From contig CM074514.1 in assembly GCA_037379345.1 (NCBI GenBank), forward strand, positions 6,944,001-7,008,000: a DNA stretch of 64,000 nucleotides, written 5' to 3'. Position numbers: made by a program. The DNA is from Perna viridis (Eukaryota). Shown in pieces: positions 6,601 through 30,600 of this stretch; position 1 is the first letter of the stretch; each line of letters opens with the position of its first letter.

Positions 6601-9600
6601 ACTAAAATCATACATACAAAGTAACAAAAGCAAATGAGCAACTCGGACTCCACTAAAAACTGGGAGAATGGACCATGTGCACCGGTAGGATAAGCGTCCT
6701 CTGGTCAATAAAACATAAAACCAATTATGCAATGCAAAACTTTTAAAAACATAAAACCAATTATGCAATGCAAAACTTTTATATCTCGATTTATGTCAAA
6801 TCTTCTTTAATAAATACAGATTACTGTTTTTTTACTATTTTTCTTCAAGTTTTCAAGCTGGAATGTTCATTTCTACTTAGCAATATTATATGGAATCCGA
6901 CTCAAAGACCTTCAGGAAATTGATACATTGAAGTAAATCGTGTAACACAAGATTATCTTAATGATAAGCTATGCATTCTATTCCCCATACTCAGTTAAAA
7001 TCCCGACTTAAAAACATTATACATCGTTGTTTTTCCAAAAAGGATGGTACACCTAGATACAAATATATAGTTCTTGGTAGAGATTCCTCATAATCTGTAA
7101 GAAATAATTCTAAATCATCTTCCAAATATACAGAGGAAGATGTTTACAAAATGCTGGAATTTTTAAAGACAACATTAATTGACAACATATTTGTCCAGTG
7201 TGGTGGACGTGTTTTTCAACAAACGGTTTGCATTCCGATGGGAACAAATTGTGCTCCTTTACTTGCTGACCTATTCCTTCACTCTTATGAGGCTGACTTT
7301 ATAGCTGATCTGATCCGAAAGAAAGAATATCGTTGGCTAGGTCCTTTAATCTCAGTTTCTATATAGATGACGTATTATCTTTAAACAATCCTAATTTCGG
7401 GGATTTGATACATCGCACCTACCCCAAAGAACTTGAGATATAGGATACTACAGACACTGTGAAGTCAGCCTCATATCTTGACCTACACTTAGAAATCGAA
7501 GGTAATGGAAAACTATTGACCAAACTTTACGACAAACGTGATGACTATTCATTCACAATTGTCAACTTTCCTTTCATTTGTGGCAATATCCCTTCAGCAC
7601 CTGCGTATGGAGTGTTCATATCACAACTCATACGTTATGCCAGAGCTTGCTGAAACTACGCAGACTTTTTGCATCGCGCTAGAACTCTAACAAATAGGCT
7701 TCTGGGACAGGGTTATGTTGCTACAAGATTGAAGTCATCACTACAGAAGTTTTATGGTCGTCATCATGAACTCGTGGATCGTTATGGTGTATCCATCTGC
7801 ACCGTGAAAACTGATTTATTCAACAGGTCATAGTGTTCCTTTCCTCGTTTGTCTACCCCGGACTTGAATTTTTATGAGCAACTCGGCGGGTGTTTCTAGA
7901 AAAGCAGAGGACGCTTACCCTACCGGTGCACCTGGTCCATTCTCCCAGTTTTTAGTGGAGTCCGAGTTGTTCATTTGCTTTAGTTACTTTGTATGTATGA
8001 TTTTAGTTACTCTATGTTCTCTGTTGTGTATGTCTTCTTTCCATGTCTGGACTTTGTCCCTGGATTACATTCTTTTGATTACCGCTATAACCTTGGTCCC
8101 TTGATTACTCATTCATATTTCTTACTTATTTCCGCATCTAAATCATTTCAAATAATAAATTTAGTCGCTTTTAAGTTTGGTATATTTTAGTACTTTTAAA
8201 GAATGCAGACATTTTTTGAAGGGTCTAAGAAAAACAAACCAATACAAAATAAGATGATCACACCCTTTCTTCTTTTACACAACATTGGATGTTTGTTTCT
8301 TCGCCATTTAGATGGATTTGCTGAAATACGTTTGTTTAGAGAAGACATTCATAAAGTAACGCCTTTTAATTGTTTGCATAACAAGATGTCTTATACTACC
8401 CATTCACTTTGAAGGAAAGAAAATCTCATTTCACAGTCGGATTCCTGTTTGTGTCTAGTGCAGCAACTCCGGATTCAACAATGACATTGAATACACTGAG
8501 AATGTTTTCTTCACTTTCCTCTATCCCTTCGTTTCCCTCACTACCCTGTATCCCTTCAACTACGTTTCCTTCATTTTTTTGTATTCCTTCCACTAGATTC
8601 CCTTCATTTTCTTGTATCCCTCCAACTAAGTTTCCTTCAATTTCGTCTTCAACTATGTTTTCTGTATTAATGTGGGATTTTAAGTCATCGTTTTGTTCAG
8701 ATATTGAAAAAGTTTCAACAGATCTTTCTCTCTTAATGCAGACCAATGACTCCTCTTTCTTTTCCATATTTAGATCAGCCGTGTCATTTTCTATTGAATT
8801 GTTTGTGCTCAATAAATCACTCGTCCTTCTGTTTGGATCACATTGGCCTTCTTGTAGCAATTCAGTCTCGTTTTCGAGATTTTTATCAACAATACTCTTC
8901 CCAGATTTGCTTCTTAACTCTTTTTGTTTTTTCATCATTGCTGCTTTGGCTATGGTTTCTTGCCATTTATCTCTAATTTCATTCTTTTTCTGAAGAATTT
9001 CTATAGACCGTTCTTGCTCTGGCTTAAGTGATGAAGTTTTGTGACCATAATGAAACATTTTCATCTCAACACCAAACTCTAATCTAGATTTTGGCCTTAA
9101 ATTTCGCGGTCGCAAATCATCAATTTTTGGAATTCTGTCTATCGTTTTAGAGACACTTTCGTGCCATTTACTTTGTCTTACGTCAGGAGGTTTATCGGAC
9201 ACTTTGTTGCCTCTCCTCGATCGCCAAACAGGAATGTAGATTTCCTCATCGGTGTACAAATTTCTAAAATAAATAGATTCTCCTTTTGATTTCGATTTAA
9301 CATCCGTTTGAGCCTCATCAATCTCAGACGACATAGTTAATGAGTCTCCAATTTCTGTCCCGATTCCAGATTCTGGGGAAGAGTGTCCATTTTCATACGT
9401 CACTGCATCCTGACCTGTGCATTCTTCTTCTTCTTCACTTTCAACTTGATGTGGCGGATCGAGACAGAACATTGTAATGACCAGTGTTACAAACGTCAAA
9501 ATCGTCATTATAGATATTGGTACCATAGAAACTGCAATGGCTCTTGAAAACCAATCTAAAAAAAACATAACTATTTCATTATCAGCATGTATTTCAGCCA

Positions 9601-27600: not shown

Positions 27601-30600
27601 ATTGCAAGCGTCCGTTTGTCCTTTCATGCTGACAGCGGAGGCCCAAAGCAAAAATTTAGCAGGTACCTTTTCAATACATTTTATTTAAATTTGTGGGGAA
27701 AATGCAACTGGACTTGAATCGTATTGAGACGCGGACACATGGTGACGTCCTCTCTGTGATATTATGAATGAATAAAAACGAAACTGTCATGACGCCCATA
27801 AAAATTGTTGAATATTTTAAAGATTATGTTTAAAACGTGAATTGATAAATAATGAATTGAGCAAAACATCACACAAGATACATACCTAACAAGAAGCGAT
27901 TATTTTCTTTGAATTAATGAAATATCGCTTTTTACTGTAATAAAAATACCATAGTAATGAAGTAAAGGTGTGCGGAAAATGTCAATGAAGTACTAGCCAA
28001 GTGGTCATACTTATTCTTCGTACTGCAATATGAGATATTATCGGACCTACTGAACATTTATTTAGATGTACAAAACTATTTACACTCAGTCAATACGAAA
28101 AAGTATTTGTTTCTAACCTTAAACACGGAGCACGACTCATGCTTAACAAAATTGTTTTTATTTCTTCAATTTTATTATGGTAACGTAAATTTCCCTCTAA
28201 CTTTGCCAAATTCAATGTCATGTTATGCGTTAATGCAAGCTATGAAATCGCTGTCATGTTCATTTTTTGTCAGTCATTTGTGAGTTATGAGTATACTATA
28301 TTGCATGTTCGTTTAAGGACGTTTAAAACCCCTTTTTTCCTATGATAAGGGGGGGGGGGTAGCAGAAGTTTTGACAATTCGTTATCTCTTTGTCTGTTTA
28401 AGTGGATGTCTTAAATTCTTGGATTTGCTCTTCGCCTCGGTTATTATCATATCAATATGCATGTACACAATGTTTTCAAGCATGTCATCTTAAGGTTTGT
28501 TCATTGTAACATGACATCAAACTTACCGACGTAAAAAAATAAGATACAGACACTGCACAGCGACGGAAATCTCATCTCCGGTCGTGATTATTCCATATCA
28601 AATTTGTCTTGATTCTGGTATATTCCATGTAAAAAAAAATGTCCCGATTTTAGTATTGTGGAGGACTGTTTTTAGAAAAACTGAGACAGTATGTACATAA
28701 CATAGATCCAGTTAAACATAACTGAGAGGTCAAACGTCAACTTGCTTGTTTTGAAACCCGGACGAGCAACGATTAACGGACCATTTCACAATTAATTAAT
28801 TACTTGTAATAAAGATCAGTGATTTAAAGTACTGTTTACTGACAAATATTATCTTTTACAAAAATCATGGCATGTCAAAGTCAAAAGCAACACATCTGAT
28901 AAAATAAGATATATGATTTTAAATACGACTCTGTTATTTAACTCGGACCCAATAGTCACGGATTTTGGCATAATGGCAAATACGCTTTTTATTAGAAATA
29001 TGTCTTTGTAGTTTTACAAAACTTCATGGAACCTGTGGTTACACTTGCATTAAAGACTCTTCGATGAGTCTTAGCCACTGAATGTACAAGATAATCATAA
29101 TTCTAAAGTGAAGGGTATAAAGGCGGGTACGGAGACTTAAAAAAAAACCAAATGAATAGTAATAAAACACACACACGCAAGATTTTACCAGAGTAAAGAC
29201 CTTGCACACCTGTGTGGTTAACTTTCAACTTAGTAAAGTAAAGTAAAAGTAAAGTAAATTTTATTTAAAGTCGGCATATATGTACAAATAATAAAATAAC
29301 ACGAGCACTGAAGTGCTCTTTAAATAAATAAAAAACATGCATGCACAAACTAAAAACACACTTCCATTAATGTACTGTCACATCAGTAATAAGATGCACC
29401 ACTGTCCGTCTATATAATGATAACGCGAAAAGTTTTGAGGAATCCTAAAACATATTGGCAAAATATTGCTACGATGTCTTCATTGACAAAAGCATCCGCC
29501 TAACTTTCATTGTATTGCGGTATTCGTTCCAAGGAGTGATCAAGGGAACCAAGATTCTAGCGGAAATCAAAAGAATGTAATCCAGGAACAAAGACCATAC
29601 ATTGAAAACAGACAAACACAACAAAGAACATAGAATAGCCAGAATATGGTCGTTGAACAAATCAATTTTTATGGTGCAGATGGATACACAGTAACGATCC
29701 ACGAGTTCATGATGACGACCATAAAATTTCTGTAGTGATCTTGTAGCAACATAACCCTGTTCCAGAAGCCTAATTGTAAGAAGTCTAGTGGGATGCATAA
29801 AGTCTGCATAGTTACAGCAAGCTCTGGCAATACGTATTTTTGTGATATAAAAACTCTACATATACGCAGGTGCTGAAGTGATGTTGCCAAAGATGAAATG
29901 AAAAGTTATCGTGTTTGCCGTAAAGTTTGGTCAATAGTTTTCCTTTACCACCGATATCTAAGAGTAGGTCAAGATATGAGGCTGACTTCACAGTATCTGT
30001 AGCATCCTTTATCTCAAGTTCTTTGAGGTACTGTAAAAGCAAAAACTTTCGTTGGGGATTAAATTTCGTTTATTTCGTGGGTAGAACAAATCCACGAAAA
30101 TATGTCCCCACGAAATGTTTTCTCCAAATATGTATTTCAATTTTAAATAAAACATTATTCTGAATTCAAATGCACTAATATGTATGTAAAATCAATAACC
30201 TTAATATCCCTCAAAACAGGCGGTCGTAATTTACTTCAACTATGTGTGCGATAGAGCGTGTTATACACAATAACGGGAGTGCCAAGCTTCCCTCTCTTTG
30301 TCATTCAATTAGCAGTAGATAAAAGATCATTTAAGAAGATGAAAACAATTATCGTGTTTACAGCTGGATGTCAAAACTTTAATAAATCACCTTAGTATAT
30401 TCAAAATATTGTTTTCATTTGCTAAGATGGTGTCGGTGCCGATGTCATCGTTTTTGTAAAACCCTTGATTTGTACATTACCGGAAACAAAAGGAAACGTA
30501 AATATTTGAGATAAAAGGGACGAACTTCTTAACTACTTTTTTAATGAATGATGTAGATGCGATGTATCAAATTCCCGAAACAACGATTGTTAAACGATAA

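What the first reader, a model, noticed from the sequence alone, without database searches (positions are those of the whole stretch)
8426..28575. Unusual mosaic receptor: mucin + TSP1 + vWA + unnamed domain + two cadherin-like repeats + TM + acidic tail
Seen: 14 exons splice into one open frame with signal peptide and TM. The N-terminal modules sit on symmetrical phase 1-1 exons, the signature of exon shuffling. Established: vWA+TSP1 pairs occur in adhesive and shell-matrix proteins, while cadherin repeats normally occur in long arrays. I do not recognise this combination as a named family. Inference: a lineage-specific adhesion, immune or biomineralisation receptor.
Basis: partly seen in the sequence, partly recalled or inferred. 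Interest (0 to 1): 0.7.

Follow-up and report, generated by a model that had tools for sequence, protein, structure and literature searches.

The report
Mussel mosaic cadherin-related surface receptor gene
This is a real, intact gene for a single-pass membrane protein that strings together a sugar-rich stretch, a thrombospondin repeat, a von Willebrand A domain, an unclassified beta-sandwich domain and two cadherin repeats; its only named relatives found are uncharacterised mussel (Mytilus) proteins, so it is a lineage-restricted adhesion-type receptor of unknown ligand.

Summary
The gene is real. On the minus strand, from the ATG at 28575 to the stop at 8426-8428, I find 13 coding exons, not 14. 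All 12 introns are GT-AG and the phases are consistent: 3408 nt, 1135 codons plus stop.

A 1125-aa Mytilus edulis protein (CAG2244568.1 / A0A8S3UTV3) maps colinearly onto every exon except the signal-peptide exon. That argues against two fused genes. It also revealed a 69-nt exon (24393-24325) that I had missed.

- **Confirmed domains:** TSP1 and vWA by Pfam. Two cadherin repeats by profile and by fold, though below Pfam's cut-off.
- **Unnamed domain:** a new-to-Pfam jelly-roll beta-sandwich with only generic CBM/lectin-like fold matches.
- **vWA metal site:** degenerate.
- **Tail:** net acidic with a basic middle and four conserved islands.
- **Relatives:** every named relative is a Mytilus species, all uncharacterised. 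No paper cites the accessions I searched.

Best reading: a mytilid-restricted type I adhesion or recognition receptor built by phase-1 exon shuffling. The ligand and tissue are unknown. Interest is moderate to low.

The parts
28527..28575 (-). Exon 1: ATG plus a hydrophobic signal-peptide-like start (16 full codons, ends in phase 1, donor GTAAGT)
   Evidence: Read. It is not conserved in sequence with the Mytilus relatives, so this exon rests on sequence logic alone.
27116..27460 (-). Exon 2 (345 nt, phase 1-1): acidic Thr/Ser/Pro-rich mucin-like region with 19-aa repeats
   Evidence: TRF finds a 57-nt period, 3.7 copies, 94% matches. Composition is 51% T+S+P with net charge -27. Identity to the repeat region of P0017 is 29-33%.
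25867..26034 (-). Exon 3 (168 nt, phase 1-1): thrombospondin type 1 repeat
   Evidence: Pfam TSP_1, E 2.6e-11, 44 bits. It has a WxxW motif and five Cys; the sixth Cys is the split codon with exon 4. Identity to P0017 is 49%.
24970..25536 (-). Exon 4 (567 nt, phase 1-1): von Willebrand factor A domain with a degenerate metal site
   Evidence: Pfam VWA, E 3.1e-13. The nearest solved relatives are collagen VI alpha3 vWA domains. Identity to P0017 is 46% over the whole exon. The exon reads D-P-T-E-Y where DxSxS is expected.
24325..24393 (-). Exon 5 (69 nt, phase 1-1): start of the unnamed beta-sandwich domain. I missed this exon in my first model.
   Evidence: tblastn with P0017 residues 418-440 gives 74% identity. 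Splice sites were read.
21110..21277 (-). Exon 6 (168 nt, phase 1-1): unnamed domain, core strands (CCG...W.FF motif)
   Evidence: 69% identity to P0017. No Pfam match.
20699..20780 (-). Exon 7 (82 nt, phase 1-2): unnamed domain
   Evidence: 58-59% identity to P0017. The donor is GTATTC.
20037..20239 (-). Exon 8 (203 nt, phase 2-1): end of the unnamed domain
   Evidence: 52% identity to P0017 in A1. Exons 5 to 8 together form a phase 1-1 block.
14413..14589 (-). Exon 9 (177 nt, phase 1-1): first half of cadherin repeat 1
   Evidence: All 29 PDB hits are cadherins or protocadherins, the best being Pcdh19 at 1.3e-6. Identity to the Mytilus row in A2 is 72%.
12223..12347 (-). Exon 10 (125 nt, phase 1-0): second half of cadherin repeat 1, ending S-T-Y-N-A
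   Evidence: 68% identity in A2. Fold evidence comes from the Mytilus relative.
11225..11396 (-). Exon 11 (172 nt, phase 0-1): first half of cadherin repeat 2
   Evidence: 63-69% identity to Mytilus relatives. Alone it finds nothing in the PDB. It is cadherin by profile and by fold.
10338..10490 (-). Exon 12 (153 nt, phase 1-1): second half of cadherin repeat 2
   Evidence: 66-68% identity to Mytilus relatives.
8426..9555 (-). Exon 13 (1130 nt): juxtamembrane PPDWF motif, TM helix, 344-aa cytoplasmic tail and stop codon (8426-8428)
   Evidence: TM window ISIMTILTFVTLVITMFCL has mean hydropathy 2.43. The tail aligns end to end with the P0017 tail at 32% identity, with four conserved islands. 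TRF finds 33-nt and 27-nt repeats at 8504-8644. No Pfam family matches at E up to 10.

Best explanation
One intact 13-exon gene on the minus strand encodes a type I membrane protein of about 1135 aa.

Outside the cell, in order from the N-terminus:
- a cleavable signal peptide;
- a short acidic Thr-rich region, probably O-glycosylated;
- one thrombospondin type 1 repeat;
- one collagen-VI-type vWA domain whose metal-ion site is degenerate;
- a roughly 175-aa jelly-roll beta-sandwich that belongs to no Pfam family;
- two membrane-proximal cadherin repeats.

Then come one TM helix and a 344-aa tail.

It belongs to a small gene family otherwise seen only in Mytilus mussels. There, three architectures share the block of beta-sandwich, cadherin repeats and TM.

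Proposed mechanism (inferred):
- The two cadherin repeats act as a stalk. Their linker has lost the usual acidic calcium-binding residues.
- The stalk holds a TSR-vWA-sandwich head away from the membrane, where it binds an extracellular glycan or matrix ligand.
- The four conserved tail islands couple binding to cytoplasmic partners.

The modules were assembled by phase-1 exon shuffling.

Shown: gene structure, domain identities, the family relationship and tail conservation. Inferred: glycosylation, ligand type, stalk role and signalling.
For: **Gene structure**
- 13 exons, 12 GT-AG introns, no internal stops, 3408 nt.
- P0017 (M. edulis, 1125 aa) maps colinearly on the minus strand over exons 2 to 13. 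Identity is 29-74% per exon, and the alignment reaches residue 1124 of 1125.
- RefSeq models with the same order exist in M. californianus, M. edulis, M. galloprovincialis and M. trossulus.

**Domains**
- TSP_1 and VWA by Pfam.
- The profile of the cadherin-like region hits 48 cadherin-superfamily chains among 49 PDB hits, with CELSR1 at 3.1e-17.
- The AF2 model of that region in the Mytilus relative has pLDDT 81.9. It matches tandem EC domains over about 203-235 alignment columns among the listed matches; Pcdh15 EC4-7 scores 6e-12, and at least 500 hits have E<=1e-3.
- The sandwich-domain model has pLDDT 80.8 and pTM 0.81, is all-beta, and gives only generic jelly-roll matches: CBM6, an esterase CBM-like domain, PHR, APC10, the Cwp84 lectin-like domain and phage tail proteins. 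The Atlas leads agree (Lectin_like, PHR) but score under 0.85.

**Glycan lead**
- Two Mytilus relatives add a SUEL lectin domain ahead of the mucin-like repeats.

**Tail**
- The islands SIxFxxLYxxExxxIPVW, FGVxxKxFHxGxK, LQKKNxxxxKWxExIAKA and LSxFNxIVExGxAA are kept at only 32% overall identity.

**Shuffling**
- 10 of 12 introns are phase 1, and the SP, mucin, TSR, vWA, sandwich and cadherin blocks all have phase-1 borders.
Against: - No transcript evidence exists for this window.
- Exon 1 has no homology support.
- Pfam's Cadherin model stays below its gathering score in all four full-length relatives tested: 22.6-28.1 bits against 28.8. It finds nothing in the single window exons.
- Both fold models were made on Mytilus sequences with shallow alignments (8 and 7 rows, four of them single window exons). 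They are not models of the window's own joined protein.
- The A2 profile contains a row from a Mytilus protein with canonical cadherin repeats, which raises its cadherin scores.
- The sandwich domain has 0 Foldseek matches at E<=0.001, so a glycan-binding role is only suggested by fold class.
- The vWA metal site is degenerate, which removes the best-understood vWA ligand mechanism.
- The flank just inside the membrane is acidic rather than basic. That is unusual for a type I protein.
- Nothing here shows ligand, tissue or signalling.
Confidence: 0.6

Rival explanations
1. The protein is a matrix precursor rather than a receptor. The ectodomain is shed and built into shell, byssus or another extracellular matrix, and the membrane anchor serves only for delivery.
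For: Transmembrane proteins that combine TSP1, VWA and a jelly-roll F5/8 type C domain were recovered from coral skeleton proteomes. Only their extracellular peptides were detected (PMC4890752, passages read). The vWA exon is closest to collagen VI-type matrix vWA domains. The N-terminal repeat region is acidic, with net charge -27.
Against: The 344-aa tail keeps four conserved islands at 32% overall identity, which suggests a cytoplasmic role. I saw no cleavage motif. None of the family accessions I searched appears in the main text of any paper. Proteome tables usually sit in supplements, which were closed.
Confidence: 0.2
2. The protein is a homophilic, calcium-dependent cell-cell adhesion molecule that works through its cadherin repeats, as classical cadherins and protocadherins do.
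For: It has two true cadherin-fold repeats. Repeat 1 keeps the E-E-N and D-T-D-L-G-D-N motifs.
Against: The repeats lie next to the membrane and are capped by four other modules, whereas trans binding normally uses the distal repeat (recalled). The linker between the repeats reads S-T-Y-N-A-P-P where DxNDNxP is expected, and L-P-S-G where DRE is expected (motif definitions recalled). No cadherin cytoplasmic domain was found.
Confidence: 0.1
3. The model is an artefact: two neighbouring genes (TSR-vWA and sandwich-cadherin-TM) read as one, or a decaying pseudogene.
For: There is no transcript data for this window. A shorter Mytilus paralogue group (P0156, 638 aa) lacks the TSR and the tail, so the parts can exist in other combinations.
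Against: Named full-length models from four Mytilus species have the same order. An in-phase 69-nt exon bridges the vWA exon and the next exon. All exons are open and all 12 introns are GT-AG.
Confidence: 0.04

Closest known systems
Mytilus uncharacterised proteins: M. edulis CAG2244568.1 / A0A8S3UTV3 'VWFA domain-containing protein', M. californianus LOC127708599, M. galloprovincialis LOC143045700 / VDI04607.1, M. trossulus XP_063445258.1 'mucin-2-like'
   Same: The module order and length are the same (1073-1211 aa against about 1135). The M. edulis protein maps colinearly onto exons 2 to 13. The repeat unit is 19 aa in both, the juxtamembrane PPDWF motif is shared, and so are the tail islands.
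   Different: Identity is only 29-74% per exon, 46% in vWA and 32% in the tail. The window's gene is therefore a distant orthologue or a paralogue. Two Mytilus members add a SUEL lectin domain that the window lacks. None has a studied function.
Mytilus paralogue groups that share the sandwich-cadherin-TM block: P0156 group (about 600-640 aa, vWA but no TSR or tail) and P0157/P0158 ('Cadherin domain-containing protein')
   Same: The same unnamed domain sits directly before the cadherin repeats and the TM.
   Different: The P0156 group ends right after the TM. The P0157 group has several canonical cadherin repeats (Pfam 1.3e-25) and no vWA or TSR.
Cadherin-related proteins with few repeats plus other modules (calsyntenins; mucin-like protocadherin CDHR5). 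Recalled, not tested.
   Same: All are single-pass proteins that combine a few cadherin repeats with a beta-sandwich or a mucin region. Calsyntenin also has an acidic tail.
   Different: The module order is reversed, and those proteins have no TSR or vWA. I saw no WDDS-type motif on reading the window tail (motif recalled). No sequence relationship was found beyond the cadherin fold.
Coral skeletal 'TSP-1 and VWA domain-containing' transmembrane proteins (PMC4890752, passages read)
   Same: They are TM proteins that combine TSP1, VWA and a jelly-roll domain, and the paper describes that architecture as unique to corals.
   Different: Their jelly roll is F5/8 type C, and the passages I read name no cadherin repeats in it. 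Pfam finds no F5/8 type C domain in the window's exons or in the Mytilus relatives. The resemblance is most likely convergent.
Apicomplexan TRAP/MIC2 adhesins and animal ANTXR receptors (recalled)
   Same: All have vWA, with or without TSR, then a TM and a cytoplasmic tail that links to the cell interior.
   Different: Those use an intact MIDAS site, which is degenerate here. There is no subterminal Trp, and Pfam finds no Anth_Ig or Ant_C domain.

Membership tests
Mytilus LOC127708599 / A0A8S3UTV3 orthogroup | Colinear similarity over the whole length with the same module order | tested here: met
   tblastn with P0017 covers residues 13-1124 over exons 2 to 13 in order on one strand. The tail aligns end to end.
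Cadherin superfamily | Extracellular cadherin (EC) repeat fold | tested here: met
   Tested on the Mytilus relative, with the window exons as alignment rows. At least 500 Foldseek hits have E<=1e-3, and the top ones are all tandem EC domains. Among PDB profile hits, 48 of 49 are cadherins. Exon 9 alone gives 29 of 29 cadherin hits.
Cadherin superfamily | Pfam Cadherin (PF00028) at or above its gathering score | tested here: not met
   The four full-length relatives score 22.6, 24.9, 25.9 and 28.1 bits against a cut-off of 28.8, and only for repeat 1. The window exons score nothing.
Cadherin superfamily | Calcium-binding linker motifs (DRE, DxNDNxP) between repeats | tested here: not met
   The window reads L-P-S-G and S-T-Y-N-A-P-P at those places (alignment). 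XEX and DxD-like motifs are kept. Motif definitions are recalled and were placed by eye.
Classical cadherins | Catenin-binding cytoplasmic domain | tested here: not met
   No Pfam family matches the 375-aa last exon at E up to 10.
vWA domains with a functional MIDAS (integrin I domains, TRAP, ANTXR) | DxSxS plus downstream Thr and Asp | tested here: not met
   The window has D-P-T-E-Y, and T-V-A where T-D-G is usual. The site also varies among relatives: DITFS, DLSLD and NPIEI.
Thrombospondin type 1 repeat | Pfam TSP_1 above its cut-off, WxxW, six Cys | tested here: met
   44 bits against 21.6. W-G-E-W is present. Five Cys lie in exon 3, and the sixth is the split codon T+GT with exon 4.
Coral TSP1 + VWA + F5/8 type C membrane proteins | F5/8 type C (discoidin) domain | tested here: not met
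   Pfam gives no F5_F8_type_C hit in the window exons or in six Mytilus relatives.
Mucins | Long, heavily O-glycosylated Pro/Thr/Ser tandem repeats | tested here: inconclusive
   The region is only 114 aa, 51% T+S+P, with 3.7 repeats of 19 aa. Glycosylation cannot be tested here.
Carbohydrate-binding or lectin-like jelly rolls (CBM6, Lectin_like PF18560, PHR) | Significant sequence or fold match to a named family | tested here: not met
   No Pfam match. The PDB profile search gives a best E of 1.2. Foldseek gives 0 hits at E<=1e-3, with best TMq 0.58. Atlas scores are 0.82 or lower for named clusters.

The most novel reading that the evidence does not exclude
The unnamed beta-sandwich is a new family of glycan-binding module. 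The gene family would then be a mytilid-specific set of recognition receptors whose N-terminal repeat number is varied to diversify the surface. M. californianus alone lists at least 22 isoforms, and the 5 I examined differ only in the number of 19-aa repeats. M. galloprovincialis has three similar gene models on one contig. This would be a mussel counterpart to the diversified immune receptors of other invertebrates.
Probability: 0.1. Interest if true: 0.6.

Novelty: new variant of a known kind. Interest (0 to 1): 0.35.

Why it matters
If correct, the gene is a clean, checkable example of how phase-1 exon shuffling builds lineage-specific surface receptors in molluscs. Six modules all have phase-1 borders, and a lectin module is added in sister species. 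It also marks a beta-sandwich domain that no family library covers, always placed directly before cadherin repeats in three mussel architectures. For mussel biology, whether adhesion, immunity or shell and byssus formation, it is a candidate receptor with a conserved but unclassified cytoplasmic tail. It is not a surprise in kind, because mollusc genomes hold many such mosaics.

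Tried and rejected
**Searches that found nothing**
- Pfam on stop-to-stop ORFs and on single exons found only VWA and TSP_1; it found no cadherin.
- The word-index search with the vWA exon among longer proteins found nothing.
- Exon 11 alone against the PDB gave only a chance hit, E 0.95.
- The sandwich-domain profile against PDB sequences gave nothing better than E 1.2.
- The Atlas gave only leads: unnamed Porifera and Annelida clusters at 0.87, and Lectin_like or PHR clusters at 0.82 or lower.
- A lenient tblastn for a SUEL lectin exon or a conserved signal-peptide exon found nothing better than chance.
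- Paper searches returned 0 papers: 11 accession, UniProt and LOC identifiers and a five-term architecture query.
- A looser query gave 24 papers. I opened one of them, the coral paper, and read passages only.

**My own corrections**
- The script was off by one at the exon 3 donor and put every later exon out of frame. I fixed this.
- My 12-exon model lacked the 69-nt exon. tblastn corrected it.

**Readings rejected**
- Membership of TRAP/MIC2, ANTXR, calsyntenin or classical cadherins: defining features are absent.

**Not done or left open**
The range of the sandwich domain outside mussels is therefore not settled.

Full report
**Scope.** I never assembled, translated, searched or folded the joined protein of the window. 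Where a whole protein was needed, a full-length database relative from Mytilus stood in for it. The window holds no N. Its repeats and relatives point to a bivalve mollusc, not a human contig.

**Observation.** The gene lies on the minus strand.
- The ATG at 28575 opens a 16-codon hydrophobic exon that ends in phase 1 at a GTAAGT donor.
- I read the remaining splice sites and checked them by script.
- The result is 13 coding exons, 12 GT-AG introns, no internal stop, no split codon that is a stop, and 3408 nt, which is 1135 codons plus the stop at 8426-8428.
- My first script was off by one at one donor (fixed).
- My first model had 12 exons. tblastn with the Mytilus relative showed a 69-nt, phase 1-1 exon at 24393-24325, between the vWA exon and the 21277 exon.
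- The relative leaves no gap that asks for a further coding exon, so I count 13, not 14. A non-coding leader exon cannot be excluded.
- Ten of the 12 introns are phase 1, including the first six in a row, and exons 2 to 6 are each 1-1. If about a third of introns are phase 1 (a recalled rough figure), six in a row has a chance near 0.001.
- The last exon is a 376-codon open frame, with P about 2e-11 at this strand's stop frequency.

**Relatives.**
- A word-index search with the vWA exon found nothing.
- The exhaustive HMMER search with the same exon gave 331 proteins at E<=0.001. Most were giant multi-vWA, collagen VI-like proteins.
- That list also held the window's own ORF (P0001, 100%) and one single-stretch full-length relative, P0017 (46% identity, 1125 aa).
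- P0017 is Mytilus edulis CAG2244568.1 / A0A8S3UTV3, 'VWFA domain-containing protein'. Its 90% cluster holds M. trossulus XP_063445258.1, 'mucin-2-like'.
- Searching with P0017 residues 420-830 gave 6 proteins, all from Mytilus.
- Searching with the profile of the unnamed domain gave 10 proteins: 9 named Mytilus proteins and one unnamed.
- Cluster look-ups add RefSeq models in M. californianus (LOC127708599, isoforms numbered up to X22), M. edulis and M. galloprovincialis (LOC143045700). They also add three similar gene models on one 316-kb M. galloprovincialis contig.
- tblastn with P0017 maps colinearly onto exons 2 to 13, at 29-33% identity in the repeats, 40-74% in the domains and 31% in the tail, up to residue 1124 of 1125.
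- This is the main argument that the locus is one gene.

**Domains.**
- *TSP1 and vWA:* Pfam confirms TSP_1 (E 2.6e-11) and VWA (E 3.1e-13) on the window's ORFs.
- *vWA type:* the closest solved relatives are collagen VI alpha3 vWA domains. Where the metal site DxSxS is expected, the window reads D-P-T-E-Y, and T-V-A where T-D-G is usual. The site also varies among relatives. A metal-dependent ligand site is therefore unlikely.
- *Repeat exon:* it is 51% T+S+P with net charge -27, and holds 3.7 copies of a 57-nt unit. It is mucin-like but short.
- *Cadherin repeats, sequence:* exon 9 alone finds only cadherins in the PDB (29 of 29 hits, best 1.3e-6). Exon 11 alone finds nothing. A profile of the region hits cadherins in 48 of 49 PDB matches, with CELSR1 at 3.1e-17 over both repeats. 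That profile was built from parts of three Mytilus proteins plus the four window exons as separate rows.
- *Cadherin repeats, fold:* the AF2 model of the Mytilus part has pLDDT 81.9. It matches tandem EC domains, with Pcdh15 EC4-7 at 6e-12 and at least 500 hits at E<=1e-3.
- *Cadherin caveats:* Pfam's Cadherin model stays under its cut-off in all four full-length relatives, at 22.6-28.1 bits against 28.8. The linker between the repeats has lost the acidic DRE and DxNDN residues (read by eye, motifs recalled). These are true but divergent cadherin repeats.

**The unnamed domain.**
- Exons 5 to 8 encode about 175 aa with no Pfam match and no PDB sequence match.
- The AF2 model has pLDDT 80.8 and pTM 0.81. 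It was built on 8 rows, four of them single window exons. It is an all-beta sandwich of 11 strands.
- Foldseek against the PDB gives 0 matches at E<=0.001. The best ones (E 1e-3 to 5e-2, TMq up to 0.58) are jelly rolls of many kinds: a cyanophage capsid protein, the CBM-like part of carbohydrate esterases, phage tail-tip proteins, CBM6, an agarase CBM, the PHR domain, APC10 and the Cwp84 lectin-like domain.
- Atlas leads point the same way (Lectin_like, PHR) but score 0.82 or lower, which the tool rates as leads only.
- The same domain sits directly before cadherin repeats in two other Mytilus architectures. One is a short form with vWA but no TSR or tail (P0156 group). The other is a form with several canonical cadherin repeats (P0157/P0158).

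**Membrane and tail.**
- There is one strong TM segment, with mean hydropathy 2.43.
- The 344-aa tail has net charge -25 and pI 4.78. Residues 51-200 are basic, and the flank just inside the membrane is acidic, which is unusual.
- The tail aligns end to end with the Mytilus tail at 32% identity and keeps four islands. That argues for cytoplasmic partners.
- No Pfam family matches it.

**Shuffling in action.** Two Mytilus relatives carry a SUEL lectin domain ahead of the mucin-like repeats. The window has none. Of the 24 members in the M. californianus cluster, the 5 isoforms I aligned differ only in the number of 19-aa repeats.

**Mechanism.** I commit to a type I adhesion or recognition receptor.
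- The two cadherin repeats form a stalk with a calcium-poor linker.
- The TSR, vWA and sandwich domains form the binding head, most likely for a glycan or matrix ligand.
- The conserved tail islands pass the signal on.
- Confidence is high (about 0.9) that the structure and the family assignment are right. It is about 0.5 for the receptor mechanism.
- Rivals are a shed matrix precursor (by analogy with coral TSP1+VWA+F5/8C membrane proteins found in skeletons; PMC4890752, passages read), a homophilic cadherin-type adhesion molecule, and a gene-model artefact.

**Novelty.**
- The family is already in sequence databases, but only as uncharacterised predictions.
- No paper in the library names the 11 accession, UniProt and LOC identifiers I searched.
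- A five-term architecture query also found none.
- Supplements were closed, and proteome tables there could list these proteins.
- The combination is not a member of TRAP/MIC2, ANTXR, calsyntenin, classical cadherins or the coral family, because defining features were tested and not met.
- I rate it a new variant of a known kind: a mosaic cadherin-related receptor.
- How far the sandwich domain reaches beyond mussels stays open. My one exhaustive search went to the vWA exon, no AlphaFold DB library was on hand, and the closed collections were not searched.

Noticed in passing
window 15863-18426 (-), inside the 5447-nt intron between exons 8 and 9: A non-LTR retrotransposon in the same orientation as the gene. 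It has an endonuclease ORF (Exo_endo_phos_2, E 1.1e-6) followed by a reverse transcriptase. The RT is split into two ORFs by a stop near 16931-16933 (RVT_1, E 7e-9 and 1.2e-13), so the copy is probably dead.
   Followed up: partly
window about 48160-62299 (-), possibly with 42423-42929 (-): A second gene lies upstream on the same strand, with exons encoding an Ig I-set domain (E 5e-13) and several fibronectin type III domains (up to E 1.6e-28, with weak DSCAM-type FN3 hits). A Pro/His-rich ORF at 42423-42929 might be its tail. It is an Ig/FN3 adhesion receptor of the sidekick/DSCAM/contactin kind.
   Followed up: partly
window 23073-23533: A 29-nt satellite with 16 copies at 82% matches lies in the intron between exons 5 and 6. 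It gives spurious ORFs in several frames.
   Followed up: no
window 6471-6704 (-), 7868-8104 (+), 35904-36287 (-), 29469-29855 (-): A repeated element gives near-identical ORF pieces (…AYPTGAPG…ESEL.ICF.YFVCMIL…) in three places. The fourth place, 29469-29855, shares only the downstream part (…SLLC.SVF.VWSL.LDYILLI…), fused to an RT-like piece. The element is dispersed and I did not classify it.
   Followed up: no
window 451-1023 (+): An ORF with a P-loop (GPTGSGKT) gives weak, sub-threshold matches to viral packaging ATPases (Adeno_IVa2 at 20.9 bits against a cut-off of 21; Pox_A32). It may be a fragment of a Polinton/Maverick-like element. The first 2 kb also have a higher G+C content, 0.40.
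   Followed up: no
Mytilus californianus LOC127708599 (P0155 cluster), not in the window: Isoforms are numbered up to X22, with lengths stepping by 19 aa (1075, 1094, 1113, 1132, 1151). The 5 isoforms I aligned differ only in the number of 19-aa mucin-like repeats. In the window the repeats lie in one uninterrupted exon.
   Followed up: partly
window 8504-8644 (-), in the tail part of exon 13: The C-terminal acidic part of the tail holds 33-nt (3.0 copies) and 27-nt (2.0 copies) tandem repeats encoding units like NEGNLVEGIQ. The alignment with the M. edulis tail shows no repeats like these there.
   Followed up: no
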